NCBI GenBank assembly: GCA_051294375.1
Contig: CM119264.1
Coordinates: 10,887,832-10,951,831 of the forward strand
Reading direction: 5' to 3'
From: Paraspadella gotoi
Taxonomy: Eukaryota; Animalia; Chaetognatha
DNA: 64,000 nt
Part shown: one piece after another, positions 2,331 through 55,873 of the stretch
Position numbering within the stretch: position 1 is the stretch's first letter
Layout: the number at the start of each line of letters is the position of its first letter
Position numbers and translations under genes: made by a program
The notes under the pieces: generated by a model
Told to the model about the DNA's origin: nothing
The model's input: the letters and a program-made list of their open reading frames with translations, nothing else
The model's database searches: none

Positions 2331-4240
2331 AGAATTGCAAAATTTTTTTCCTGACTCATAATCCATTATTCTCAAGTTTCAAAATATTTTTTTTCCAAAA
2401 TCATTCAATCAATTTTTTTTTTATTAATTTAAAATGTTTTTATGATGTTGTTTTTGTTTGAAAGAATTGAAAAAAAGTGAAAAATATAGTAATTATATAA
2501 GGTTTTTAAAAATACCTTGGAAATATTAAATAATTAGACACAAGGGGAGTAAGCAGAGAAAACTTCCCATTCATAAAAGAAATTGAAAATGAATTTGTCA
2601 TAATATTATTTAGATTAATTGACTAATTACAAATAAATGATTCATATAAATTGAGCAAATGATGGGTAAAAAATATTCATCTTGGTCTCGGTTAACTATT
2701 AGGTTATCGTTAAAGTTTTGTTTATATAATATTAATATTTTTTTTGCATTTATAAAAGCAATTGTCTAAAATTTTGTAAGCGTTTCGAGCTATATTGCTT
2801 CATCTTTTTTACTATTTTTGATCTAGTTAGCTTTTTTGTTGATGGTCAAGGGTTATGGTCAGATACAGTAATGTCCAGTAGTGTATATCGCACATATTAT
2901 CAAAAGTAATGATCAATTAATTTGGCTCAGAAACAATTTTAAAGGGACAAAATCAAGCACGAGACTGTTTCGCCACGTTATTTTTCATTGTGTCGTAAAC
3001 GTATCCGTTCAACCGCAAAATTCTGTTTCTCTTTCATTTCTTTCCTTCGATTCTATTTTTTTTTTTTCTCTTCTCCTTATTTCATCGTCGCGTTTCTTCC
3101 TTTTTCCGCGTCGTTTATATTTGACACGCGGAGTGTCGATCTCTTTTTTTTTTTCATTGATTTTTCGTCGTCTCTCTCTCATTTTTCCACCTCACCCTTA
3201 GCCCTCACCTCCTTAACTCATCTTTTACTTTCTTTTGACTTTCCCTTTTGTCTTCAACTCTTTCTTTTCATTCCCCGGTTTCCCTCTTCCACCGAGTGTC
3301 GCTCCGAGAATTGCGGAAGCAAAAATGACAAACGAGTTTCCTCAGACACATTCATTAGATGATCTCGGACCGGGACCTGGGGATGGTGGAAGGAAGAAGG
3401 AAGCGGGAAAGTGAAGCGAGGAAAGAGAGACAATAATGTCAATAAAAGAAATAAGATGAGAAAACAATACTGGGCAGCAGTAAATTGTCCGAGTGTCGCT
3501 GTCTGACCGTACATTGATACTGGACCCTACTACTACTTCGATTGAGAATACTTGACGGACTCGTCTGTGACCACTGACCAGTAACCACGGAGAGTGTCTT
3601 CGCCCAATCGACGGAAATGGGGTCTTTCACGCGTGAACCCAAGTCTTCCGCGGACGATCCTCCGCGCGCGATTTAACACGAAAGTGGTCTCGCCTATACC
3701 AATCTTGGGAAATGGGGAAAAATGGCGGATCTTCCTCGGTTCGTCGAGAACCCAAAGTGAAGGTCCAAGGTTGATTTTTTTTCTGTTTCTTCGAATCTTA
3801 GAATATTCTGAGGCACTGTAATAATACGTGCTTATTAAGCATTTTATTTTTACGAATTAGGTCTTACAAAGTCTGATAAAGTCAATTCAATTTCTTTTCG
3901 GTCTCCAAATAACTTGAAAGTTGATACTTGTTTTCAATTTACAATTCTTTCTCCCCCGTTTCTCCTCTCATCTTTACAGACAATCCCCGGATAAGGCGAC
4001 AGCTGCCTCGGCGCCCTCTGATAAACGAAGCGGGCGAAGGCTGGCAACCGGTGTCAACGAACGAGACGCGACCGGGGAAATGTCACCCAGACGAGCGCAA
4101 CAACAACAACAACACGAGACTGATGAAAACGGTAGCATCGAGTTTCACTCGTCTTCAGATGGGACGCATCAAAGTGAAAGACATGTTCCGAAATCAAAAA
4201 CCAACCAATTAAAGTAAATTCTGCGAACGTCGACCATAAT

Positions 4241-6694
4241 ATGGCCTCACAAGAGTTGTCGCACTGCATCAAATACTTGATGTTCTTCTTCAACTTTGTG
4301 TTTTTGGTGAGTAACATATATTTTGATCATGTTCAGTAGGTAACGAGGGGGAAATGGTTAAATGGTTAATAAAATGTAAATGATTCGAGATCTATTTTTA
4401 AAACTGAGTTAACTTTAAATGTAAAAAACTTAAAAATTCTCGATCCACTCCATTGTCTCCCCCTCTCCCAACCATATGTATCGCCAGGTCGGAGGCACAG
4501 TGCTGGTTACGTTGGGTCTTTGGATCGTGATAGACGAAACCGATTTGGAGGTTTTGCTCCAAACGCAATTGCTGACGACTTCGGCCTACCTCATGACTGC
4601 CGCCGGGATCGTCACCATACTCATTGCTTTCTTCGGATGCTTCGGGGCGTTGAGAGAGATCAAGATTTTGATCGCTATCGTGAGAACTTTTAATTTTTTT
4701 GTTTTTTTATAGCTTAAAAGTGTATTTAAATTAATAAATACCTAAAATGTGCCTTGAAAATAAAAGCGTTTTCCTTAAAAAGTTAGACGTTACTTCGAGT
4801 TTTGTTACTTTATACCAATGCTTAATAATTTTTTTACAGTACTTTTTCTGCCTGGCTCTCCTCTTTATGGCTTTGATTGTTGGCAGCATTCTCCTGTTTG
4901 TGTTCCAGGCTCAGGTAGGCTCTCTGAAACGGTTTTAACAATTGATTTGTGTATGAAAGAATAAATGATAAGAATGTTCAGTGTGTATGTATTGGCTACA
5001 GAAGTATTTCAGATCATTTTAATTATTTCGTCGTAAAAGTAATATTGTTAAAATTGCGCTTTCTTTAAAACCCAAGATTAAATACTGACACGAGCGATCA
5101 CTTTTTGAATTAGTTTTGGTTTAATCTCATCATATTAACCTGCTTCAAATCGTACTTTCTTTCTTATCTTATAACACCCTAATTTTTGCGAAATAAAACT
5201 AACTTGGGTAAGACAAAGTGCGTCGAAGTGAAAACTTATATGTTTGGTTTTAACGTTAATGGAGAGAAGTCGGGATTATTACTTGCAAATGTTTCATTCA
5301 TTCGTTTTGTATTTTTTACGTTTTTGCTTTTTTAAAAATACAAAAAAATAAAAATAAAAGTATTTTGTCAATGTAGACGGCATGCCTAGGCATAGAATTA
5401 GAGGTATCTTTAGATATTCTGTTTTCTGTTTTATTTTACTGACAACACCTTGCGAGGTAAAAAAAATGCCTAGACAACCCGGCGGCCAACGTCCGAGATG
5501 CTGAACGGCCTCGAAATGTTGTTCCGAGGTTCACACAATTATTAACAACATTATTATTAACAGCCGTTGTAACAGACGCGAAAAAAAGCACAGATCTTCT
5601 TTACACATACAATATCGTAACTTTCCCCTCTTATTAGAGCGTAGACCGTTAATTTAAATGTAAACAAAAATAAAGTGCCTGAATCGAATTTTCTTATTTT
5701 TCTCCATTCCCCCTAGCAGCGTCTAAATCTCAATCCTCGAACTCTCTAACATCAGCTTTTCTAAGTAATATAAAAATATTCAAGATTTGTCATATATTTT
5801 TTACAGATATACGAGGTATCTAAGAAAGCAATGCGATCGACTATGCTTGAGCGTTACGGAGTGACAGAAAAATTTAAATCAACCCTCAAGTACAAAGCAG
5901 TAACCGAAGCGTGGGATTGGGTCCAGAGAAATGTAAGTACTTTAAATTAAATTAAATTTTTCAAGCGTCGAGTCGTTCGTTCACTGTAAAATGTTATTTT
6001 TCATATCAGTTCAAGTGCTGTGGTCTCGAAGGAAACCAATCAGAAGCGCATTTCCTATGGCAAGAATCAAGATGGTTCGGAAACCAGCCTGAAGGTATTT
6101 TCGGTGTTTCTAATCAAAGGTTCAATGCTTTTGAAAGAAATAAATGTAGTGTACACTCACAAAAAGTTTCTCATTTCTGTAGGGCATATGAAGAAAAAAG
6201 TTCCAGACAGCTGCTGCACAGTGGTAGAGGATGGTACTTACCTCAATCAAGATGGATGCCAGGGCACAAGAAGTAAACTTTTGAAACCTTGGCCTCCGGA
6301 ACAATCATCCAATCAGCTGTACACCTCAGTATGTATGATGCACGAAGTAACATTTAGAATAAGTTATCATTTTAGTCATGATGTGCAACAGATTTCTAAT
6401 CTGAAATGGGGCCAATATTGCCTATTAATTGAATGAATGAAAAAATTTTTATTGATTTTACAAAGTTCATGACTAAGAAGAAAAAATCATTTTCAGGGAT
6501 GCTACAACAAGGTAAAAAACTTTGTGGAAGGCAATTCAAGCAGAATTGCTATTATTGGAGCATGCCTGGGATGTCTTCAGGTTGGCAGCTTCTTGTGAAA
6601 AATTATATTATCAAAGCCAAAAACAAGGTTTTCATCATTTTGACAGATTGCTGGAATGATTTTTTCAATTTGCCTTTTTCGGACTCTCCGCTAG
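4241..6694 (+). CDS. Tetraspanin, 8 exons (4241-4306, 4488-4679, 4840-4914, 5807-5932, 6010-6093, 6183-6328, 6498-6580, 6647-6694; internal edges approximate)
   Basis: Spliced translation has CIKYLMFFFNFVF, FFGCFGALRE, WDWVQRNFKCCG, VPDSCC, GCY and a TM4 ending IAGMIFSICLFRTLR*. Intron phases are consistent. Confidence 0.95.
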
Positions 6695-8442
6695 CAGCAG
6701 CGAAGTCGTTCCTCTAATTCTTCTCAGACGAAATTGCAGCATAACCAAAAACATAAATCTCATTACGGGAAAGGTAAGTACACAAAGGCTTGATATCATC
6801 ATTTGCATCGCCTATCATATAGGTATCTGCACGTAATACCAATTGTCCAACTTCTCTTCGTCAAACCAGGAGGAGATACAAGCGGCGTCTTAATCGAGAT
6901 CGACGGAACTCCCACTAATTCCGCGTCCACCTTCGACATGGTGGCTATAACAAACGTAATCGCTGGCGACGTGATGTCCTTCACAGGCACCGGTAGTACA
7001 TCCGGCGGCGCTGCGTCTTGTAATGGCGTAGACGGGAGCGCTTCCAGCACTACCGGACTTTATGCCTCCGCGGCTGCCGTTGAACGGTTACCCCCAGTGG
7101 GGACGTGGAAAAGAAGGACGGCACCGTCGATCAGCAGCGTCAGGTATTGAAAAGCGAAATAAAAAAAAAGTAACTTACGATTAAAACGAAAAGAAGAAAT
7201 AAAGATTGACTGACATTAACTGCAGGAGTTCGCTTCCTATCGCCACTTCTTCCCCTAACAAAACTCTTCCCCCGGATGACGATATGTCGCGTTCGTGGTT
7301 GTTCGATGTTAGCGGACTCAGCGTCGAAACAACCAGCGGCCTTCCGCCTTCTACCCCCAAAGCGAAAACGACCCCTCCGCAAAAAAGCAACTCCCAACTC
7401 CCCTCTGCCCACAAAGACGAAAGAAAGAAGAAATCTTCCGCGTCTTCGATATCGTCCGCGAAATACTCAGTCGTCGGAGAGAGCCGACTCCTCCGGTCGA
7501 GCTCCAACAATCGTCTCGTCCGAACCACGAGTCGTCAAAGCGTCGTCAACTCCGTTCATCGACCAAAAACGCCCACTGCTCCCGTTCAGCCCATGGTTGC
7601 CCAAGCCTCTTCAACCGCCCCCCAATTCTCCAAACCAATGCCGAATCCCTTTTTCGTCCCATGGGACGGTGGAGCGAAACTTCCGACTCCTCTCGGCGCG
7701 GAAGAAACTAGTTCGCTTAGGAATCAAGCCGCCGCCGTCGAGGCGGTTCGCTCCAACACGCCCGTTGTTCCTCGGCCCTCGAACGACGCGTATTTGCTAC
7801 TAAATCAGCGTCAGACTGAGTCGAGGAGCGAAACCTCGTCGCCGTTCATTATGCATCACCAAGCAAACGGAACACTAGATCATATCACCGATGAAGTACC
7901 CGGGGCGAAACAAAAACTGCTTCACGATTCAATACCCGGAGATAACGTGGGAGCGACCCGCTTGGGTATCTCGAACGGCAACCCATTTCCCGAATTAAAA
8001 GTAACCAAATGTTTTTTTTTTAAGCATGGCGTAATATATGTATATAAAATAAAATATACAGTTATCATTTTATGAGTGACCGAAAAGGGTTTGAGACACC
8101 TTGTGTCAATCTTTCTTTTTAGTCGATTGCACGCATTCCGGTCGGTGAATGTAAAAATAAGCCCAAACATTTTTTCCGGAGAACTATTATGAGAGACAAA
8201 AATTAAAACTGTAATTTTGATTATCTAAATAAACTCAAAGGAGCGTACAATAGAATTATATTTAATTACACTGCATATTCTAGGGCTCCGGATCTGTTCT
8301 GCCAAAAATGACTGAAGATCCAAATCAAACACTGGAGGAAGTAACAGCGCAAACAACAACTTATTATGGGGATACTGTATTCAATACCAATAGACCCTGG
8401 ATGAAGGTGGAGCCCATTTCCAGCAAAAAAATTAGAAGATGA
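6695..8442 (+). CDS. Ser/Pro/Thr-rich, probably disordered coding region in frame with the tetraspanin stop (exons 6695-6773, 6870-7143, 7226-8000, 8284-8442; 428 codons)
   Basis: The frame stays open from the TAG at 6692-6694 through three GT-AG introns of matching phase (1, 2, 0) to TGA at 8440-8442. It includes ORFs 6803-7150 and 7206-8075. Confidence 0.75.
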
Positions 8443-8848
8443 ACATTGTATGAAATTCGTTTAAGTGTAAAATGGTTTTGAATTTACTATATATTTAGTT
8501 AAATGATTAAAAAAAATACTAGAATGAACAAAAAATGTTCGATAAAATTTTTTTATTTGTTCGCGAGCTTGTCAGATAATAAAAAAGAACCAAAATATCA
8601 AGCTAGCTATTGTCAGATAAATCCTGAACGAACGTCCCCGTTAAAGGAAACTGTTCAAAAAAATTAGAGCGTTTGTCCATGGTACAACGCCAATGATGTA
8701 TCAATGATGAATGTGAACAATATATAAAATACACTAAACAGAATTAGACAATACATAAGTAGCCAAATATAATAGTTAAAAACTGAAATTACTGAATAAA
8801 CTGAATAGTTAGTACGCTTGGTTGCCTGCCTTCCACCCTTTCCATCTC

Positions 8849-11300
8849 TCATCGGTCCCCACCCGATCCATAACCCCCACGACTATCTCTTCCTCTGCCC
8901 GATCGGCCCCCACTATCTCGCACCCCCGCGTATCCTCTGCCACCGCCGAATCCACCGTCGCCATCGCCTCCACCCTCTGGTTTCGGTTCCTGACACCGCT
9001 TACATGTTTCGCGCCAAGAAAAGTTCATGTTTCCACAAGAACAATGCCAATCGCCAGGGCGAGAATCTGTGAAGAGAATTGTTTATTGATAAACTTCTCT
9101 CGTTTTTTGATGTTGAATTAAACTTCGATCTTACCGCTGCCCCGTCCTCCGCCACCGCGGCCACCTCCTCCGTAACCATCGCCCCGCCCGCCATAGCCTC
9201 CACCAGATGGCGCAGATCCCTCTCCAGCGCCCTCAGGCTTTGGCTTATTGCACCTTTTGCAAGCCATCCTCCAAGAGAAATTGTCATTTCCGCAATCGGG
9301 ACAGGGCCAGTCACCAGGTCGAGATCCTACGTGCATAAAATTTTATTCACAATATTGTTTAACTCATATCTGTTTACTCGGGGCTCAATTTCATTTGAAA
9401 TTTGAAATTTTAGATGCAAAGTTTTTTATTGTTTAAAAAAAAAAGGTAAAAGTGAAAAACTAACTAAAACTTACCAAATACAACGAAACGAAAGAATTAT
9501 CAATTAGAATTATCAATTATCAATCAGCTCATCAATTAAACAATGCATGCCAATAAATTTGGAATTAAAAGTAAATTTTTGGTGTTAATGATTAAGTTGG
9601 AAGTGACTGTTTAACGAAGGGGTTAGTGTTAAAAATTCGAGAAGGGTTTAGGTTTATGGTTTAGGATTAAGTTTTGGTTCGGGACTGGGTTATATATACT
9701 CATTTAAAACTCATTGAAATAGCTTTGACTAAAAATCAATTTACCTCCACGTCCACCTCCGCCGCCGCCACTGCCACCGCCGCCGCCACCGGCGCCGCCG
9801 CCGCCGCCGCCACCTGCCCCACCTCCGCCGGGTTTAGGTGTATTGCATTTCATGCAAACATCGCGTCTCGCAAAGTTGTTGTTGCCACAAGAGGGGCACG
9901 GCCAATCACCAGGACGAGAACCTCAATAGTTCAAGAGATATCAAAAAAACTAAACAGAAAATCCCAATCTCGAAGTTAAAATATGTAAAACTATGCCTTA
10001 ATACATAATAACAAATACGAGGAATATAGTTGTACATAAATTGAACGATTTGTATCTGAAACTTACCACCCGAGCCATCATTGCCACTAAACGATCCCCC
10101 ACCACCACCAGCTTCACTCTGTTTGGGCGTATTGCATTTCATGCAAACATCCCGTCGTGCGAAATTGTTATTTCCACAGGAAGAGCAAATCCAATCCCCA
10201 GGGCGAGAACCTTATAACCAAGAAAATAGAAAATAAGCAAGCAATAATTATTAAATTAAGGATTCCTGAAAAGTCAACCTCCGTCAGAGCCTCCATCGAA
10301 GCTTCTCCCCCCGCGTCCACCACCGCCTCGTCCTCCTCCTCCTCCACGTCCGCCTAGTGATTTGGAAAAAAAACATTATCACAGTGTAATAATAGGAATT
10401 TACAAAATAAAAATGACGTATTAATAACCACGGTTGGCTTTGCTGTAGTTCTGAACAACGGTGACTTCGATGACGCTTCCCGATCCTTGTTCTGGAAATT
10501 CTCGACCATTGAACCATTTCGGAGCGCTTTCCACTATTATCAATTACAGCAATAATAACAAATTTAATGTTTCTTTGAGACTCTCGGATGAAAAAAAAGG
10601 GTCTCGCCAGTATGGCGTAGTAACAGTTCTTTCATAATTTTTAATAACTTGCCAGCTGAGATATCTTCGTAGTGAATAAAAGCTGTCTTTTTTTCCCGGT
10701 TAAAAAATATTGACTTTTTGTCTTTCTTTGATTTGATTAATCCAATCTGAAAACAATTAGCCAGTAATGAATGTCAAGCACAACGCCAAAAATGTGAGTT
10801 TTATGAAACCTGTCCGAAGTATGACGCTATCTGATCCTCGGTAGTGCCATCTGGTAAATTAGCGACTTTCACCGTATCGAAAGGGGCGTCACTGTTTTCG
10901 TACCCCCCACCTCCTCCCCCATAGTTGCCTCCACCTCTCCCGCTGTAGATATGAGATTATAAGTTTTTTTTAAAATAACTTTAGACGAATAATATAAGTT
11001 TCGTAAACCACTTCGTTTCACTCTGTTCTTGAGGATGAAAACCAAAAATTTACCCAAAAAATACAGGGTACGACGAAGTAATTTAAATAATATCTTCATG
11101 CATATGCTTGGCAATGAAATCAGGTAGCTGCACTTTCATACATTACCTGTCATGCCAGGCCACACGCAAGGTTTTGACGTGCAGTCTTAAGAATCTTGCC
11201 TGTTTGCATATCCACTATTCCCCCCACCACCATGCGAGTAATAACTCGCTTGTGATCCGTAATTTCCATTAGATCCATATCCGCCGTCGTACTGAGCCAT
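8849..11300 (-). CDS. FET-family RNA-binding protein (FUS/TAF15/EWS/cabeza-like): SYGQ-rich N-terminus, RRM, RGG boxes, four RanBP2-type zinc fingers; 9 exons
   Basis: [21 protein letters not shown]; RRM segments '[27 protein letters not shown]' and 'KWFNGREF'; four 'RPGDWxCxxCGNxNFxxRxxCxxC' motifs; RGG runs. Confidence 0.9.
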
Positions 11301-19967: not shown

Positions 19968-21788
19968 TTAAATGAGGGTCCCTGTATTCAAATCGCCATG
20001 ACGTTGTTCATCCATCGGGCACAGACCTTCCCTTTCGACGCTTCCTCTCAACGGAGTCGTCGAGGAGGAATTTCCGGCGTCGATAAACTGCAATGGAGTG
20101 GGAGTCAATGCGCGAGAAGTCAACGCCAACGCCGTAGAAATGGCAGTTTGAAGCCGGGTCGAGCTGTGTGTCGACCCTTCAGTCGACCTGACTTGCTGCT
20201 GCGAAGATCCCTGCATTTCTTGATTATCGTTGGAACTCGCTCTCTGATAATTAAGCCCAACCACGACTTCAACGTAAGCGGGATCCAATTCTATAAAATC
20301 GACTATCACAATATTGATGCCGTGATGAGGCTCTACTGGCTTTCGGCGAAGCCAATCCACAACAGCTGCAGTGGCAGAGTGAGCAAAGTGATCTTTCAAC
20401 GACGATGTCATATGGCCTAAAAGCGTGTAGACCGTAGGGGTCAACACTCCCTGATGAACGTAAAAAGTTGCGTTACGATTGGAGTAGTGATAATTGTGTT
20501 CCAGAAAATCGATGAGATCTTTAACTCGGGTACTCCGTGGCCACGGCGAGGGTATCATTTCTCCGGGCCACAGGAAATCGATGGACGGTTGAAGAGCCTA
20601 ATGATTAAAAAATATTAACCATCCAGCTAAAAAAGGGTTAAGATTGAAAAGAAGTAAACTTACGTTTGGAGTAGAAACCCCACTTTTAACGTGATGATAA
20701 AAGATGATGACTTGTTGCTTCTTGCGCCAGAGTTCGTTTAAGGTTACAGTTTTCAAATCCGCAGTTACAGGACAAAGCTTGTCCCCAAAAGCGAAAGAGA
20801 TGACTTCGAAAAGATAGCGGTGATGGCGGTCTTCGAGACCATGAAAGTGGTTCATATCGAGAAGGACGATTTCTTTTTCGTGATTGCGCAGCCAATTGGC
20901 GATGGAAATGAGGCAGTCGCGAATATTTCCGCCATAAAATCCATGAACGAGATACAAACCGTCGAAACCAGGCCGGATCGAGATACGGAGGTCGAAATAG
21001 CGAATACCTTGAGTGAACATCCGGCTTTATTTTTCAATATCTTTTAATAAATTGATAGGTAAAATTTGTTTCTTATACGTAAAAACCTAGGTCTAATTGC
21101 TGCGAAAAAGTTTTCTCTTGCGTCTGCGACCATCGGTGCGCTACAGTTTTCGCCCAAGCTCCCAAAACCTTCAATACATCGCGATAGATCTCGGGAGCAT
21201 CAGGGTGAAGGCCCCCCTCACGATCCAACGTGGCAGTGCATGAGTCATGCGATCCGGGGATGGAAATCTAAATGTAAAATTAACCCAATTATATTTTAAT
21301 ATTTTATACAGGTTCAAATAGCGATTTAACATATTTATTCATTCTTATATTTAAAAGAAATCATTTGCCTTATTAAGTGGAACATCATGAAGATCAGTCG
21401 GAAGTACGCCCATCCAGTCGGAATACTTCATGGATACAAAGGAGATATAATTCTGAGATAAATAAACGTCCACGTCTTGGAGGTCGTCGTCGTCCGGATC
21501 CTCCGACGGTCCCAAACCGCATAGCAAACTTGATCTCCGCTTGTGTCTATTCCCGCTCTGAGAAACACGAGGAGCTACGGAGGCGTTACATTGAATCTCG
21601 AGATCCGTGTGACGCACGTCCACCGAATTCACAGAAACATCTGAATAAATGCCTTCGCGTTTGTCTGTCGTCCGGATCGACTCATTCTCCGCGCGAAATT
21701 GACTCATTTCTGACCCGCATCGAGTCTCCTTTTCCGGCCCATCCACGGGCAAAGACGGAAGCTGCCGAGGAACACGATTAGCCGCCAT
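19968..21788 (-). CDS. PLCXD: PI-PLC X domain-containing protein (PLCXD family), 4 exons
   Basis: WMGVLP...PLNK|ISIPGSHDS, RWSQTQ, QQLDLGIRYFDLR, HEKEIVLLDMNH, FYVHQGVLTP, GINIVIVDF. Confidence 0.92.
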
Positions 21789-37725: not shown

Positions 37726-40400
37726 TACTATAGACTATATTCTCTTCTCACCTTCCAACTCCCGGTCCCTCTCGTCGACCTCCCTTCCGAGGTCCCGAGC
37801 CCTGCCGCTCTCTTCCCTCGCCTTAGATGACAATTCAACGACTTCCGGTAAAAGCGGCGTAACTTCCCGCTCGGCACCGGAAGCGATCCGCAGAGCTTCC
37901 TCGGCGTCGTAGATGGCGCGCTCGGCCTGCTGTCCGGCGCCTACCAGGGAGCCGTCGGCCCTCCGAGTCTTGCTCTCAGCCTCGAGGATGATGCGCTCGA
38001 TCTCCTGCATCCCCCGGAGGGCTGCGTCGGCGAGGTTTTTGGACTGCTGAACCTCGTTGTCAAAGTTGCGCAGGATTCTGTTGTGGGGATTAAAAAAAAG
38101 GTTTAGAGGTAATTGTGGGTAAGGGTTTTTTTTATCTGAAGACATGGACCCTTTCTCAACTTTAAAACCTTATATTTATAGTACAAACATACTCGTCAAG
38201 TTTTTATAACCTTTATAATACGCATCTCTACGAGTTTCTCCGTCGGTACGTAGTTTTAGTTTTAATTATTCAAATCTTTATTTTTTTTTCTTCTATTACC
38301 ATTGTTCATCCCTAACCCATTAATCACCAAATGAACCAAGAAACTTCAAATCTCCCTTATGCAAAATCTTATGCAAAATCTGCACCGATACTACGAATGA
38401 TGACCTTAGCGTCTCCATGGCCTCTGCGATAATTCCGTCGGCTTTGGACTTGGCCTCTTGGGCGATGTTGAGTGCAGTCGTCGCCTCCTCCAGCAGACGG
38501 TCCATAAGTTGCTGGAGCCGCACGCTTTCCTCATATATTCGTTGAGCCTCGAGTACTTTTGACCTTGTCGGCATACAAGTTTTTTGTTAAGAAACGTGAT
38601 TTAAAATTATACCAAATGTTTCGCTATAATATATATATATTTTTGAAGAAACGTTAACATAAACTGGGTCTCTGGTTTGTTATGCTTAGATTTAAAATTT
38701 ACGAAAACTTACTTGATGGATTGAATGATCCCCGCATACTGTCTCTTCAGCCTCTCGGCCGCATTGGCGACGCTCTCTGCCGTCCTGGCGACCTCCTTAG
38801 ATCGCCTGCGTACCTCATCGATGTCGACCGAAGGGCCGGAGCCTCTTCGGACGTCGTCGAATATTTTCCTCGCTTCGTCTCGGCATTCTTTCATTCTGCT
38901 GTAAAGTCGTTCGGCGTCTCGACGCGCCTGCTCCATCTCGTAGCCCATCCCGCTGAACCCTCTTTGGATTTGAGCCAAAGACCTCGAGGTCTCCTCTTGC
39001 TTGGCGAAAGCCTCTCTGGCTAGTCGCCCCGCCTCTTCCGACGTAGATAGTGCCTTGTCAGACGTCGCCCGAATCCCGTCGGCTTCTTGTTCGTGCTGCT
39101 CGGCCAGTCGACGCGACTCTTCCGCCATCTCGGCCATCTCCCGCGATTGTCGTCCGAACTCGCGCTCCGCTCGGCGAGCGTTATCCAGCGCCTCCCGACC
39201 GCGAAGCTGCAGTAATTCTTGCAACTGTCGTAAGAGATCCTCTAGACGCCCTACAGTTGCTTGGCTCTCGGCTACAATGGCCTCGCCTCGTCGTTTGTCG
39301 TCCTCCACGTCCCTTCGAGTCGAAGCGAGGCCGTCCAGCTTTTCTCTCAGAATCCGCAATGCCCGTCGGTATTCTTCGAACTTGGCCATGGCTCCGGATG
39401 ATGGGCTGGAGGCGCGCAGTGATGCATCGTAAAGTTTATCAACGAAGGTTTGCACTTCGCGTAGAGTCGTCTCGAAACTCGCGTCCGTCGATCCTCCAGA
39501 CGAACCGCCTTCGCCGATCTTTTGGCGCAAGAGGCGAAGACGTCGGCGCATCTCCTCGATGGTCGGAGAAAGCAGAGCGTAGCAGGGATCGCACTCTCGA
39601 CACTCGCCTCTCGCGGGCGTCGTTCCCGCCGCAACGAAGTTCTCCTCGCAGCGGTCGCAGAGACGGCCCACCACATGGGGGCGACAGTGACACTGACCGC
39701 GAGAGTCGCACTCGTCGGCTACGCTGCCGTAGGCAGAACAGCCGCATCCACGGCGAGTGAACTGAGGTCGACGAGGATCTTCTGGTCTTCGAGGATCTTC
39801 TGGTCTTCGTCGTGGGTCTTCTGTTCTTCGTCGAGGGTCTTCTGGTCCTCGCCGAGGATCCTGCGGTCTTCGGCGAGGGTCCTCTGGCCTTCGTCGAGTA
39901 TCCTCTGGTCTCCGTCGAGGATCTTCAGGTCTCCGACGAGAACCGTCAGGTCTTCGTCGATCATCTTCGAGCCTTCGACGAGGATCTTCAGGTCTTCTCC
40001 GCCGGGGGTCTCTGTCGGTATCCCTGTGTCCTGTCGCTGACGATGCGCGGTTGTTATTGTCGTAACGAACGTCGCTTCGTCGAGGATCGAAAGCTCCGCC
40101 GGAAACAACTGTAGGAACGTTGTAAACGACGCCGCCGTAACTAGCGTCGCCTCTTGATCCGGCCGATCGGAAATCGTACCGGTTACTCGTGTCTGTCTCC
40201 GGGGAGGCGTACTGATATCGTACGTAACTCTCGTCGTAGTTACCGGCGGTCGAGCGCTGGCGATTGTTGTTGTTGTTGTTGTTTCCGTAAAAGAACGGGT
40301 TCCCCGACTGCGCAAAGTATGTGACCTCGGCTTCGACGCATGCGCACGCGAAACACGAAGCGAGAAAAGCGTTCCAGAATCGTCTCGTGGGAGCCAGCAT
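37206..40400 (-). CDS. Truncated laminin gamma-like chain, about 864 aa (exons 40400-38713, 38563-38405, 38077-37752, 37627-37206): signal peptide, novel low-complexity head, one LE domain, full coiled coil
   Basis: LE motif CGCSAYGSVADECDSRGQCHCRPHVVGRLCDRCEENF followed by CRECDPCYALL and a ~590-aa heptad region ending DVANIEDIQEQLPDGCYKFIRLE, typical of gamma chains. The spliced length of 2595 nt is in frame. Confidence 0.9.
37679..37720. repeat. (CT)n microsatellite in a laminin intron
   Basis: Pure CT run. Confidence 0.95.
39766..40008 (-). repeat. Coding minisatellite with a 21-bp unit, about 11-12 copies, encoding RRRPEDP
   Basis: Repeated 'tcgaggatcttctggtct/cttcgtcgagg' units. Confidence 0.92.
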
Positions 40401-40854
40401 CTTGCGGGTCTCGCTGGGGTGACTTTCTTTTCCCCTATTCCCGTCCGTCGTTCGCTAGATCGCCCGTCAATTCAAAATTTGTTGGTACGCGGTTCAATTT
40501 TTTTTCACTTTCGAGTTCAAGATTCACGAACGCGGTTTTTTTTTTTTTTTTTAAGTTTACTTCATCTCTCAATCATCTGATCATCATTCAAAAAAATCCG
40601 CCGATGATGATCGAAAGGTTTTCGAGGGATTTTTTCGTTTCGTCGTCCCTGACTTCTTCGCTTCAAGGGCGGTCCGAATCGAGATGAGGTTCGGGACGAA
40701 CGTTCGGTCCGAAGCGGTTCGCGTCGAAGTGGTTTTTGTCAGACTTTCTCTTATCGAAACTAAAATTGTATTTTTTTTTTCTTAGATTTTTTATTGAAAA
40801 AGTTGGTATTTAAAAGCTCGTTTTGATTTTGTATTTTATAGCGTTGCGTGTTAA

Positions 40855-51933: not shown

Positions 51934-54690
51934 ATGGGGTTTCCTACTCGTTGCTCCAACAATGGTTTCAGCAACTCATTCCATCGAACTGCAGTTTATA
52001 TTCTCGTCATCCTTTTTGCTCTTTCATCTTGGATCGACATAAATGGAGTTTGGGTTGAACTTCCACTACTTGTACCAAGATTACCCGAAAAATGGGGACT
52101 TCCTTCTTACATGGCAGGTACACATTGTAACTGTTGTAAAAATATCTTTTGGAATTTTCTTTAAATTTTATAATTCTTTGATATTTACTTAGTATTGATT
52201 CAAATGGCCAACATTGGACCGCTTCTAGTCACATTGTATAATTACTATGGACATCGAAGCCAAAGAAATGGGCACTGCGATGTTTTTATTTCATATGTCA
52301 TTATTAGCGTAGGAATCATATCATGTCTTCTTCTGGCCATGTTTTGGGACAGGTACTCTTTTATATGTAGATATAGAAATATTTTTTTGTGCGTGAAATG
52401 TATTTTTAAAGCTGTGCTAATGCTATCCTTTCTGGTGGAATTTTGGTTAACTTTTTATTGCAGGACAAGTCAAGTTTTCGGCAAGGAGCACAGCACTGCT
52501 TTGTTGTCCCTATGTTTTTTCTTGGCTTTCGTTGACTGCACATCCTCGGTTGTGTTCCTTCCGTTTATGGCTCAATTTCGCCCAGAATTTATGACGGCGT
52601 TCTTCATTGGCGAAGGATTTTCGGGTAAGACAGTATACTATCGCCGTAGCCTCTTCCCAGTAGTAATTATTTTAATTGTTTTAAAGGTTTGGTTCCATCA
52701 ATTGCCGCATTAATCCAAGGAGTGGGAGGAAATCCAGATTGCGTTTGGAAAAACTCCACTTCTACCAACTCTACGACAAACACCACCGTAGTGACTCCGT
52801 ATTTAGTTCCTGAATATTCGGGTTGGTTTCCAATAGGATTTTGCGCCCATCTGTCGAAAAATATTTTAAAAATGTTTTTAATTTAATTTTAATTACAGTC
52901 CTGTGCAAAAAAAAGAGAATACCCAAAAACATTATTTCCCATTCATAATTTTTTTTAAAAAATATAAATACAATGCCCATAAATTAAGGTAAAAATATAT
53001 TTTTGGACAAAAAAGGACAAATGTTTTTGACCCTTTGTTTTTCGGGAGATATAGCTCTTGAATACTTAGATTAATTTTTTTTAACTTATAAATATGGATT
53101 TCTCATTTTAAAATTGATATTTATCATTCATGATTTTTTTTTTAAAATATGCGTGAAATGAGCGCAACTTAAGTTTAAAGAGTGTCCTCTTTCTTTTTTG
53201 CACAGGATTGTATAATTTTCATCAGATGAAACTCGTCCGTTTCTCAGAAATACTGAATGAATAATTTTAAAAATATAAATTTTTTATGTATCATTTTGAC
53301 TCATTAGTTAATGTCTCCTCACCTCCAGTAAAACAATAATTTATGTATTGTAACATCATTTTCAGCTCCTCTCTTCGAAGTTGAGGATTTCTTTTTCATC
53401 CTCATGGGATTAATGTCGCTCAGTTTCGTTTCCCTTGTCCTGCTCAACCATTGGGGAGTGGCCTTACGCGAGCGCGTGCTCCAAGGGGGAGTCGCGGTGA
53501 CGCCGACTGTTCAAAACGCAAGCGGGACGTTGACACGGAACCGACGACATTCGCGGAGGCAAAGAGTAGACGAGAATGACTCCGTGTCGGACCTTTCCTA
53601 TCAGATGTCAAGATCAAGTTCCGTCGCTTACGAAGAGCCTATTTGGCAAGCAACAAACAATCAAAGCACGCCCAATATGACAGTAGTCCCAACAGGTAAT
53701 TTTGACCAAATATTGTGTGTAATAGTAGTAATGTTTAGTATATACGTCCTTTTATAACTAATTTACTTAAATAACTGTCTCAGTATCCCTTGAATGCCTA
53801 TAGGAAATTCTAGCGCTGGAATGAGTACTCAGAATTCTCAAGTCGATTTGGTCACTGTTCTAAATCCCTGCGAAGGAAATGCGCAATCAATTACCATTCC
53901 ATCCAACCAACAAGTAAATCGCTTGTAAATATAAATTTAGTTAATTAGGAGGTAAAATTATATAAAAAAATATTGTTCAACACTAGCACCTCACTCTTCC
54001 GCATACACCACTTATTACCGATGGCCGTATATCAACCCCTGAGAAGGAGGTGATGCCGATGTTGCTCAAGTCCCATGTGCTTACAAACTGTGACTTCAGC
54101 CTGCTCCTATTCGCGCAGGCCTTTATTTGCGCATTGTGCAACGGGGTTCTTCCTTCCATTCAATCTTATGCTTCTCTACCGTATGGTCAGTAGTACTCTT
54201 GTTATTCTGATTTGTTTTTATTAAATTCTTATTGACACAATCCGTCCACTTTTGTCATGAAATAGTAATCTAACCGAATTTAGGGAACGAAGCGTACCAT
54301 TTATCGGTGACGCTATCCTCGCTCGCCAACCCGCTCGCTTGTTTCTTGGCGCTTTGGCTTCCGACCCGATCCCGACGGGTTATCCTCGTCCTGACGTTCC
54401 TTGGCTCCGTCCTCTCTGGCTTCGTTGTCTTCCTGGCCGCTTCGAGTCCTCATCCACCGTTAAAAGGCGTCGCCCTTGGAATTTTTTTCATCGTCGCGGC
54501 ACAAGTCGCCATTCAAGCTTTCTTTTCCTACTCAAAAGTCGCCATAGCCACACTTTTAAGGGAAGAAGGAAGAAGGGCTTTGGTATGGTGCGGGGCAGTG
54601 ACGCAGGCTGGATCTTCTGTGGGGGCTTTGATTATGTTTCCACTAGTCAACATTTATTATCTTTTCAAATCAAACGAGCCGTGTATTTGA
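51934..54690 (+). CDS. SLC52A: Riboflavin transporter (SLC52 family), 8 exons
   Basis: [95 protein letters not shown]. Confidence 0.95.
52896..53210. mobile_element. Tc1/mariner-type MITE in an SLC52 intron
   Basis: TA|cagtcctgtgcaaaaaa ... ttttttgcacaggattg|TA. Confidence 0.85.
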
Positions 54691-55873
54691 CATAGGAAAA
54701 TCCCATCCGAGATGTCAAACTCTAGTTTATTTAACTTAAAATATGTTATTGTAATGTGATTTTATTAATTTTTATTGTCTTAGAAATAACTGATATTGTA
54801 TTATAAATTTTATTTATTTTTCCAGTTTTGTTAATATCGTGGTCTTTTTGAAAAATTTTAGTTAGAAGCGTTCAAAGTTATATAATTGTGGCTGAACTAT
54901 TGGTAATTTAAAAAATTAGATGCCTAATTTACTAGTCAAATTTGTATAAAATATCAGATTTTTAAATGGACGTAATTTTTTTTTATCCATCATTATTGTC
55001 GTAATTAGAATTATTTCTTTTCAGGTATTGGGCTAAAAAAATTGGATAAAAAATTGGACTAGAAAAAGTGAAAGAAAATATTAACGATCGATGAATACAT
55101 GGTAGAACTGAGAATATTTTAACAAATCATCATTCCATTCTAAATGTTAATATAAGTAAGTAGTAATCGTATAGTCCATGGAGAAATACGGATCGTTTTC
55201 AAGCTTACAGTGGCTAATAATCAATCTTGAAATAAACTATAAAAGAATAAAGGCTCTTAGAAATTAAGTAAAAATTCCATGAATGACATTGTAATTTTTT
55301 TTTCGTGCTTAAAATATAAGTTAATTCATAGGACGTAACAGCATTCGCGTTACGTTAGAACTAGAAAGTAACAAAGGACCATCTTTGAATGGCATTTAAG
55401 TAATCCCCTCTGGCGAGTCTAGATAACAACTTGTATTATTTGCGTAGTATCTCACAGTTGCACTTGTACCGAGCAAAACAGTGCGTATGACGAATTGGCC
55501 GAAGGTCATAGTTAATTTGATATTTATATTCAGCAAAAAAGTAAACGTCGCTATAATAATTCCATGACATTACATTAAGGCAAAAAATCAATTAAGAAAT
55601 GTTATCAATGGTACTATTTTTAAACTTGTCTATAAACTGTCTATAATCTGTACCAACTCGAACGTTCGTCTTAAACGCCTTTATTACGCAATTTATATAT
55701 AACGTTCTGAATTTAAAATCGATGTACGATGTATACGATAAGTTTATTTCTTATCACGTTACGCTGTAATTTTAGGGAAAAAATACTATATTTTAACTCT
55801 TTTGTATGATCAGTTGAAAGCTTTTGTTTTTACTCTTTATTTTCACAGTTAATCTAGTTGCATCAGAATACTC

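What the first reader, a model, noticed from the sequence alone, without database searches (positions are those of the whole stretch)
6647..8442. Tetraspanin stop codon followed in frame by a 428-codon, four-exon extension: candidate readthrough or NAGNAG-switched long-tailed tetraspanin
Seen: the tetraspanin ends ...FRTLR-TAG (6692-6694), then CAG CAG, and the frame stays open to a strong donor AAG|GTAAGT (6774). Splicing 6774-6869, 7144-7225 and 8001-8283 keeps the frame each time, up to TGA 8440. There is no AATAAA or promoter-sized gap between the two parts; the first AATAAA hexamers lie inside the 7144-7225 intron. Established: a C after the stop favours readthrough, UAG-CAR is part of the TMV-type leaky context, and tetraspanin C-tails are normally very short. 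Inference: (a) readthrough adds a large disordered cytoplasmic tail; or (b) pyrimidine tract plus TAGCAGCAG is a NAGNAG acceptor, and splicing from the phase-0 donor at 6581 skips half of TM4 and the stop; or (c) a dicistronic mRNA initiates at ATG 6938.
Basis: partly seen in the sequence, partly recalled or inferred. Interest (0 to 1): 0.85.

Follow-up and report, generated by a model that had tools for sequence, protein, structure and literature searches.

The report
Leaky-stop tetraspanin with giant tail
In a poorly sampled invertebrate, the spliced transcript of a tetraspanin membrane protein carries the family's normal stop codon followed in frame by 428 more codons, so some ribosomes likely read through the stop and add a cytoplasmic tail about 17 times longer than any listed for read-through tetraspanins in flies.

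Summary
A 273-codon tetraspanin ends at TAG 6692; a 428-codon frame follows across three introns to TGA 8440. A spliced contig of run X1 shows every junction, keeps the TAG unchanged and uses acceptor 6646, so assembly error is excluded and the NAGNAG route is unsupported. The TAG is the ancestral stop: 14 of 21 homologs end in the same column, which argues against a nonsense allele. The downstream frame is real coding sequence (0 of 2000 shuffles; periodicity z about 4-5). The context UAG-CAG-CAG fits the commonest fly readthrough motif CANNNG but not TMV CARYYA; there is no strong 3' stem. Best reading (0.65): UAG readthrough gives a 702-residue form whose likely disordered tail bears two NPF motifs. 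Main rival (0.23): independent initiation at ATG 6938. No close relative exists in the databases, so conservation is untested; one distant ortholog (L001) lacks the extension. Fly tetraspanin readthrough is known, with tails of 25 residues or fewer. The scan's notes hold nothing on this locus or on tetraspanin readthrough.

The parts
4241..4306 (+). Tetraspanin exon 1 (ATG 4241)
   Evidence: joint 4306/4488 in X1
4488..4679 (+). Tetraspanin exon 2 (TM1-TM2)
   Evidence: Pfam PF00335 32.3 bits, cut-off 32.1; covered by X1 record 2
4840..4914 (+). Tetraspanin exon 3 (TM3)
5807..5932 (+). Tetraspanin exon 4 (large extracellular loop)
6010..6094 (+). Tetraspanin exon 5 (CCG motif)
6183..6328 (+). 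Tetraspanin exon 6 (PxxCC motif)
6497..6580 (+). Tetraspanin exon 7 (last loop cysteine, first half of TM4)
6647..6773 (+). Exon 8: second half of TM4, the TAG, and the first 26 codons of the extension
   Evidence: X1 record 4 covers 6644-6771 with 0 differences
6692..6700 (+). Ancestral UAG stop with CAG CAG behind it (+4 C, +5 A, +9 G: CANNNG)
   Evidence: sequence; homolog ends; motif from PMC13278127
6697..6737 (+). Weak interrupted hairpin beginning about +6 to +9; not significant
   Evidence: first 60 nt -9.4 kcal/mol, z -1.6
6870..7143 (+). Extension exon 9; holds the first ATG after the stop (6938)
7226..8000 (+). Extension exon 10; Ser/Thr/Pro-rich, NPF motifs at 7644 and 7980, one synonymous difference in X1 at 7637
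8284..8442 (+). Extension exon 11 coding part, second stop TGA 8440-8442
8443..8600 (+). AT-rich 3'UTR with AATAAA at 8578 (likely poly(A) signal), overlapping the convergent neighbour's 3' end

Best explanation
The spliced transcript holds a complete 273-residue tetraspanin frame, its ancestral UAG and a 428-codon in-frame continuation, and a fraction of ribosomes likely read through the UAG to make a 702-residue form whose long tail is predicted to be cytoplasmic and disordered. Shown: gene structure, splicing, the UAG in RNA, its ancestral position, and the coding character of the downstream frame. Inferred: (1) the weak context (C at +4, A at +5, G at +9, C at -4) slows release so that a near-cognate tRNA, most likely Gln as at fly UAG readthrough sites, decodes the stop; (2) because TM4 ends on the cytoplasmic side, the 429 added residues are cytoplasmic; (3) the tail supplies sorting and binding motifs that the short form lacks (two NPF, four SxIP-like, two Yxx-hydrophobic, one acidic dileucine), so the long form would couple tetraspanin membrane domains to endocytic or recycling machinery. 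Step 3 is the most speculative.
For: 14 of 21 homologs that cover the C-terminus, and 12 of 13 in the ecdysozoan group, end in exactly the TAG's column. The downstream frame is coding-like (z 4.4-4.9 from ATG 6938 on) and X1's only difference in it is synonymous (1 of 1). It is in the tetraspanin's frame and open across a 49-codon spacer that includes a splice: about 0.06 by chance with the spacer's own composition, about 0.006 with 3'UTR composition (times 1/3 for frame). The context fits CANNNG, the most prevalent motif of fly readthrough genes (PMC13278127); 71 of 7040 stop triplets in the window have it. Long, disordered, spliced extensions after UAG have precedent: 11 of 333 FlyBase rows have 400 aa or more, 4 of them at UAG (counted by eye). 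The tail has no hydrophobic segment (max KD19 1.1) and two NPF motifs against 0.04 expected (p 0.0008, about 0.015 after 18 motifs).
Against: No ribosome, peptide or reporter data. No relative close enough to test conservation; the one ortholog with a visible 3' end (L001) has TAG AAA AAA and a 6-codon second frame. The spacer's own codon signal is weak (z 0.9-1.5, p 0.07-0.19). No significant stem follows the stop (z -1.6 to +0.8 for 60-300 nt), and in the fly gene dfr the +4..+9 context alone was not enough (PMC13170385). The TMV and yeast consensus is not met. 1 of 8 other presumed gene ends in the window also has CANNNG, so the motif alone is weak. ATG 6938 has a strong context. In the fly, dicistronic loci (159) outnumber readthroughs this long (11), and abundant readthrough is reported only for Pancrustacea, to which this animal cannot be assigned. 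A contig is not a molecule: the same contig runs on into the antisense neighbour.
Confidence: 0.65

Rival explanations
1. The downstream frame is a separate 379-residue (40 kDa) soluble protein starting at ATG 6938, made from a dicistronic mRNA (reinitiation or internal entry), from an internal promoter in exon 8, or from trans-splicing onto acceptor 6869; the shared frame and the CAG CAG are chance.
For: ATG 6938 is the first ATG after the stop in any frame and has G at -3 and +4. The 147-nt spacer lies in the -34 to 319 nt range of obligate fly dicistronic loci, and 159 such pairs are annotated (PMC4528330). The spacer's base make-up resembles the gene's own 5'UTR. The clear coding signal begins around exon 9, not at the stop. 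Contigs cannot show starts.
Against: Needs frame match and an open spacer (0.06 or less) and, independently, a readthrough-type context (about 1% of stop triplets). Absence of ATG in the spacer is expected anyway (p 0.68). No contig lies in intron 6774-6869. No loose end was listed at 6870 or at the gene's 5' end, though 30 loose ends were not shown. No free-standing homolog of exon 10 was found, which is weak evidence only.
Confidence: 0.23
2. A minor splice form skips the stop: donor 6580 joined to a NAGNAG acceptor at 6694, 6697 or 6700, or donor 6094 joined to 6870.
For: The tandem AGs exist and all keep frame; no other AG lies between 6647 and 6692; donor 6094 is phase-compatible with 6870. 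Contigs drop rare variants.
Against: X1 uses 6646 and depth leaves no room for another contig. The three AGs score -3.6 to -7.8, below all 14 real acceptors; no branch-like motif but one weak TGAT lies in front. Either product breaks the four-helix fold.
Confidence: 0.04
3. The gene is a long-tailed tetraspanin and the TAG is a recent CAG>TAG nonsense allele, or a sequencing error.
For: TAG CAG CAG looks like a mutated (CAG)3; the assembly has indel differences from RNA at 8817-8928.
Against: The RNA contig, which differs from the window at other sites, has the TAG. The stop sits exactly where 14 of 21 homologs stop; a random nonsense change would rarely land there. The transcript is fully spliced and well covered.
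Confidence: 0.03
4. The UAG is recoded before or apart from leaky termination: A-to-I editing to a Trp codon in part of the RNA, or UAG reassigned to Gln genome-wide.
For: Editing of a minority would be lost in contigs.
Against: No difference at 6693 in X1; no long perfect duplex around the stop. 0 TAG among 2780 trusted codons that hold 114 Gln codons; the one long frame that TAG seems to join (21026-19968, minus) is an in-frame 66-nt intron ending in TAG. No tRNA gene in the window.
Confidence: 0.02

Closest known systems
Drosophila tetraspanin readthrough: Tsp86D (25 aa), Tsp96F (16 aa), Tsp5D (4 aa), all UGA (PMC4528330 File S5); nine tetraspanins with 15-75 nt extensions in PMC13278127 Table T3 (file cut when stored)
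   Same: A tetraspanin whose normal stop is followed by an in-frame extension read by a fraction of ribosomes.
   Different: Extension here is 428 codons over four exons, after UAG; the fly cases are 25 residues or fewer and are backed by conservation or ribosome profiling, which this one lacks.
Long fly readthroughs: Synapsin (UAG, 444 aa), headcase (UAA, 430), kelch (UGA, 788), caps (UAG, 240, transmembrane), Glut1 (UGA, 778)
   Same: Length, low-complexity disordered character, and for Synapsin and caps the UAG; membrane proteins among them.
   Different: None is a tetraspanin; all are insect genes with comparative support; here no stimulatory stem was found and the animal is not a known insect-type lineage.
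Ecdysozoan CD151-like/TSPAN11-like tetraspanins (Priapulus, Paramacrobiotus, Hypsibius, Ixodes, Pollicipes, Meganyctiphanes, Polyplax, Caligus)
   Same: Fold, cysteine pattern and the exact C-terminal end; the window protein falls in this group at 83/91 support, not starred.
   Different: Only 27-35% identical, on a long branch; no member seen has a long tail, and L001 has an ordinary AT-rich 3'UTR.
Fungal Tsp2 and Tsp3 tetraspanins with long C-terminal tails of 66-110 aa (PMC2278132)
   Same: Tetraspanins with an enlarged, polar cytoplasmic tail.
   Different: Encoded without an internal stop, and a quarter of the length.
Type I (TMV) readthrough signal UAG-CAR-YYA (name recalled; consensus CA(A/G)N(U/C/G)A quoted in PMC13278127)
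   Same: UAG followed by CAG.
   Different: Positions +8 and +9 are A and G, so neither consensus is met.

Membership tests
Tetraspanin (PF00335) | Pfam match | tested here: met
   Exon 2 alone 32.3 bits, cut-off 32.1; 224 relatives at E<=0.001
Tetraspanin (PF00335) | Four hydrophobic segments, CCG and PxxCC cysteines in the large loop | tested here: met
   Four KD19 peaks at 19, 57, 82, 249; motifs in the translation
Programmed stop-codon readthrough (non-selenocysteine) | Stop codon present in the mature mRNA, with an in-frame ORF behind it on the same transcript path | tested here: met
   (contig level, one run)
Programmed stop-codon readthrough (non-selenocysteine) | The stop is the gene's true end, not an error or fresh nonsense change | tested here: met
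   14 of 21 homologs end in the same column
Programmed stop-codon readthrough (non-selenocysteine) | Coding signature starting directly after the stop, before the first ATG | tested here: inconclusive
   Spacer open (p 0.19 to 0.018) but codon signal z 0.9-1.5
Programmed stop-codon readthrough (non-selenocysteine) | Leaky context (+4 C, +5 A, +9 G) | tested here: met
   Sequence; PMC13278127 section 7 and discussion
Programmed stop-codon readthrough (non-selenocysteine) | Stable 3' stem-loop (common, not universal) | tested here: inconclusive
   Only a weak hairpin, z -1.6 at best for 60-300 nt; no long-range duplex beyond shuffles
Programmed stop-codon readthrough (non-selenocysteine) | Stop identity and extension conserved in related species | not testable with these tools
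   No close relative in any search; distant ortholog L001 lacks it
Programmed stop-codon readthrough (non-selenocysteine) | Ribosomes or peptides across the stop | not testable with these tools
   No ribosome-profiling or proteomic data
Type I (TMV) signal | UAG-CAR-YYA hexamer | tested here: not met
   UAG-CAG-CAG
NAGNAG alternative acceptor | Tandem AGs usable as an acceptor and used in RNA | tested here: not met
   Scores below all 14 real acceptors; not seen in X1 contigs, which can drop rare forms
Dicistronic mRNA | Downstream AUG in good context within the usual spacing | tested here: met
   ATG 6938, 147 nt after the stop
Dicistronic mRNA | Independent initiation at that AUG | not testable with these tools
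   Needs initiation-site profiling or protein N-termini
Selenoprotein | UGA codon with a SECIS element | tested here: not met
   Stop is UAG; no SECIS match in 3500-9200 at E<=1
UAG codon reassignment | In-frame TAG in ordinary coding exons | tested here: not met
   0 of 2780 codons, in stretches chosen as open under the standard code

The most novel reading that the evidence does not exclude
A non-insect, non-crustacean moulting animal uses UAG readthrough as a switch that turns a tailless tetraspanin into a membrane-anchored trafficking scaffold: three whole exons annexed behind the ancestral stop give a 429-residue tail with paired NPF (EH-domain ligand) and SxIP-like motifs, so that one mRNA makes both the microdomain organiser and its own endocytic adaptor.
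Probability: 0.25. Interest if true: 0.75.

Novelty: new variant of a known kind. Interest (0 to 1): 0.5.

Why it matters
Tetraspanins are defined by very short cytoplasmic tails and act through partners. A readthrough form with a tail longer than the protein itself would give a tetraspanin its own large interaction platform, set by termination efficiency and so open to tissue control. It would also be a long, multi-exon readthrough in a lineage that may lie outside the insect-crustacean clade where such events are reported as common, and a case in which a stop with three introns behind it does not prevent a well-covered transcript. Gene predictors would annotate the locus as two genes or drop the tail.

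Tried and rejected
No whole genome is held. Homologs of extension exon 10: none among proteins of 453-2000 aa or 141-452 aa; weak evidence. Exon 2 against longer proteins by word search: none. Pfam: no family for 4 of 4 extension pieces. ESM Atlas: only unnamed clusters, scores 0.85 (exon 10) and 0.91 (exon 9), recognition values below the informative level. AlphaFold on exon 9 alone: pLDDT 36, meaningless without an alignment. No listed run is on record as RNA; X1 is read as RNA because its contigs skip GT..AG introns. Runs X2 and X3 give no cover over the tetraspanin's coding exons at 85%. A second, narrower read-laying was not obtained, so 2 joints, 30 loose ends and 76 pieces remain unseen. 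Related loci: 10 found; 1 (L001) shows the 3' end, 9 end before it; extending L008 was not possible. Rfam: three matches, all far below their gathering scores, including snoU85 on the minus strand at E 0.0035 over a 74-nt stretch; rejected. No tRNA gene. P0175 (451 aa) is a tandem double tetraspanin and P0168 has a long N-terminus; neither is long-tailed. Long-range duplex of +7..+48 with the rest of the mRNA: -26.7 against -25.0 +/- 2.6 for shuffles. No paralog of the extension in the window. Literature searches for a long read-through tetraspanin found only the fly cases; two searches gave background. Jungreis 2011 is not held.
Full report
Observation. The window is from an intron-rich animal genome; no whole genome is held. 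A tetraspanin gene runs from ATG 4241 over eight exons to TAG 6692-6694 and gives 273 residues. Exon 2 matches PF00335 above its cut-off and the protein has four hydrophobic peaks. The other two frames of the same spliced stretch reach 229 and 132 codons. None of 2000 dinucleotide shuffles is open in frame and none gives an ORF above 283 codons.

RNA. One run, X1, holds 0.64 of the stretch's words. It is not on record as RNA, but its contigs skip GT..AG introns. One contig of 2675 nt (depth 98.8) joins 5932/6010, 6094/6183, 6328/6497, 6580/6647, 6773/6870, 7143/7226 and 8000/8284, with no difference over 6644-6771. Its only difference in the extension, at 7637, is a third-position synonymous change. 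Limits: one run, contigs drop rare forms and cannot show starts, the same contig runs on into the 3' end of the antisense neighbour, and 2 joints, 30 loose ends and 76 pieces were not printed. The window differs from X1 by several indels at 8817-8928, so the assembly is not error-free, but the TAG is not among the differences.

The stop is ancestral. A profile-free search with exon 2 gave 224 relatives, the best only 46% identical; the best 150 were examined. Of the 21 whose alignment reaches the C-terminus, 14 end in exactly the column of the TAG and all 21 within -1 to +10 residues; hits with divergent or truncated ends were left out of this count. The named ones are CD151-like or TSPAN11-like proteins of a priapulid, tardigrades, a tick, crustaceans and a louse, then TSPAN18 and CD37. 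A tree of 22 rows puts the window protein on a long branch in that ecdysozoan group at 83/91, not starred: the animal is probably an ecdysozoan without close sequenced kin, and cannot be placed inside or outside Pancrustacea. A fresh nonsense change would seldom fall on the family's own stop, so that reading is given 0.03.

The downstream frame is coding. A three-periodic model trained on 16 coding stretches of the window favours the annotated frame by 54-106 bits from ATG 6938 on, z 4.4-4.9 against shuffles (the order-2 value includes stop avoidance). The product is 33% Ser/Thr/Pro, basic, without a hydrophobic segment. It has no Pfam family, no homolog and no informative Atlas hit. Of 18 short motifs tested, NPF occurs twice against 0.04 expected (p 0.0008), an SxIP-like pattern four times against 0.83 (p 0.008, not significant after correction); Yxx-hydrophobic and dileucine motifs are present at chance level. 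That NPF binds EH domains, SxIP binds EB proteins and Yxx-hydrophobic motifs sort CD63 and CD151 is recalled knowledge, from no call.

Readthrough against a second gene. Only the 49 codons between TAG and ATG 6938 tell the two apart. They are open in 19% of their own shuffles, in 21% of 5'UTR-like and 1.8% of 3'UTR-like sequence; with one chance in three for frame this is 0.06 to 0.006. Their codon signal is weak (z 0.9-1.5). They hold no ATG, but that has p 0.68. The context has C at +4, A at +5, G at +9 and C at -4, the biases of top-tier fly readthrough genes, whose commonest motif is CANNNG (PMC13278127). That motif follows 71 of 7040 stop triplets in the window, but also 1 of 8 other presumed gene ends. 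The TMV and yeast consensus is not met. No significant stem follows the stop, whereas fly dfr needs one (PMC13170385). For priors, FlyBase lists 159 dicistronic pairs with spacers of -34 to 319 nt for the obligate ones and 11 of 333 readthrough rows with 400 residues or more, 4 at UAG (counted by eye). Inference: prior odds of about 1:4 to 1:14 against, times at least 16 for frame and openness, times perhaps 5-10 for context (my estimate; the share of CANNNG among readthrough genes was not seen), favour readthrough; discounted for the missing conservation, the missing stem and the unknown lineage, I put it at 0.65 and independent initiation at 0.23.

Other routes. The tandem AGs at 6693, 6696 and 6699 score -4.8, -7.8 and -3.6 bits in a matrix from 14 acceptors that score -1.9 to 8.4 when left out; X1 uses 6646; the product would lose half of TM4. 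UAG is not a sense codon: 0 of 2780 trusted codons, beside 114 Gln codons, and the one frame that TAG seems to join is an in-frame intron. No SECIS and no tRNA gene were found.

Conservation. It could not be tested. A scan of metagenome contigs gave 10 loci. L001, a spliced ortholog, ends in the same column with TAG AAA AAA, a 6-codon second frame and an AT-rich UTR; the other nine end before the last exon. So the extension is not a trait of the whole subfamily (0 of 1 seen).

Mechanism. Shown: one transcript path with the ancestral UAG and a coding-like frame behind it. Inferred: leaky termination with near-cognate decoding, probably Gln as for fly Synapsin and vvl, giving a 702-residue, 76 kDa form beside the 31 kDa one; cytoplasmic location of the tail from tetraspanin topology (established knowledge); a role in sorting through NPF motifs (speculative). 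Three introns lie behind the stop, the first 79 nt away; the transcript is nevertheless well covered, which fits either junction-independent decay, as described for insects, or protection by readthrough.

What is known. Fly tetraspanin readthrough is documented, with short tails: Tsp86D 25, Tsp96F 16, Tsp5D 4 residues, and nine tetraspanins with 15-75 nt in a 2026 table. Extensions of this length are known for Synapsin, headcase, kelch and Glut1. Fungal tetraspanins have encoded tails of 66-110 residues. Abundant readthrough is reported only for insects and a crustacean. Searches of the held library found no long read-through tetraspanin; subscription papers are not covered. It works like the long fly readthroughs; membership is not established, since two defining features could not be tested.

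What was seen of each paper. PMC5100048: passages, section 17, supplement search (one file not searched). PMC13278127: passages, section 7, rows of supplementary table T3 (file cut when stored, so absence of Tsp74F and others is not certain). PMC13170385: passages. PMC4528330: passages, section 23, File S5 whole, supplement search (one file not searched). PMC2278132: passages. Jungreis 2011: not seen, known through the others.

Verdict. A real and unusual locus; a new variant of a known kind if readthrough is confirmed; interest 0.5.

Noticed in passing
window 4080-4217 and 4123-4212 (+): The tetraspanin leader covered by X1 (from 3978) holds two overlapping upstream ORFs out of frame with ATG 4241: 45 codons with a Gln run, and 29 codons with two further ATGs. 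Possible translational control of the same mRNA.
   Followed up: partly
window 6308-6661 (spliced, exon 6 end to exon 8 start): A multi-branch fold over exon 7, 30-150 nt before the stop, has z -3.6 (0 of 200 shuffles) in the best window but -0.1 to -2.8 in neighbouring ones. Not upstream-of-stop evidence of anything yet.
   Followed up: partly
window 8817-8928, minus-strand neighbour: The Gly-rich, zinc-finger neighbour (FET-family-like; label recalled) has frame breaks in the assembly where X1 shows five indels and two substitutions: likely assembly errors. Its 3' end overlaps the tetraspanin's (signals at 8552 minus, 8578 plus).
   Followed up: partly
window 54688-54760 (+): The presumed stop of a transporter-like gene is TGA followed by CATAGG (also CANNNG) with a 22-codon second frame, but AT-rich.
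   Followed up: no
window 20598-20663 (-): A 66-nt in-frame intron ending in TAG makes two ORFs of a phospholipase-like gene look joined by an amber codon; a trap for readthrough calls.
   Followed up: yes
window 4885-5833: X1 has a contig over intron 3 at depth 12.5 against 47.5 for the spliced 5' contig: retained intron or pre-mRNA.
   Followed up: no
window 6774-6869: The intron after the stop is the most GC-rich of the gene's ten (0.40 against 0.23-0.34) and has an initiator-like TCATTT at 6799; no contig lies in it.
   Followed up: partly
window 38709-40454 (-): A 581-codon single open frame joins a signal-like start and an Arg/Pro/Asp repeat block to a laminin-type EGF and coiled-coil region: an odd, short laminin-like gene.
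   Followed up: no
P0152 against P0087: Two models of the louse ortholog differ at the C-terminus, one with a longer alternative end; model artefact or alternative last exon.
   Followed up: no
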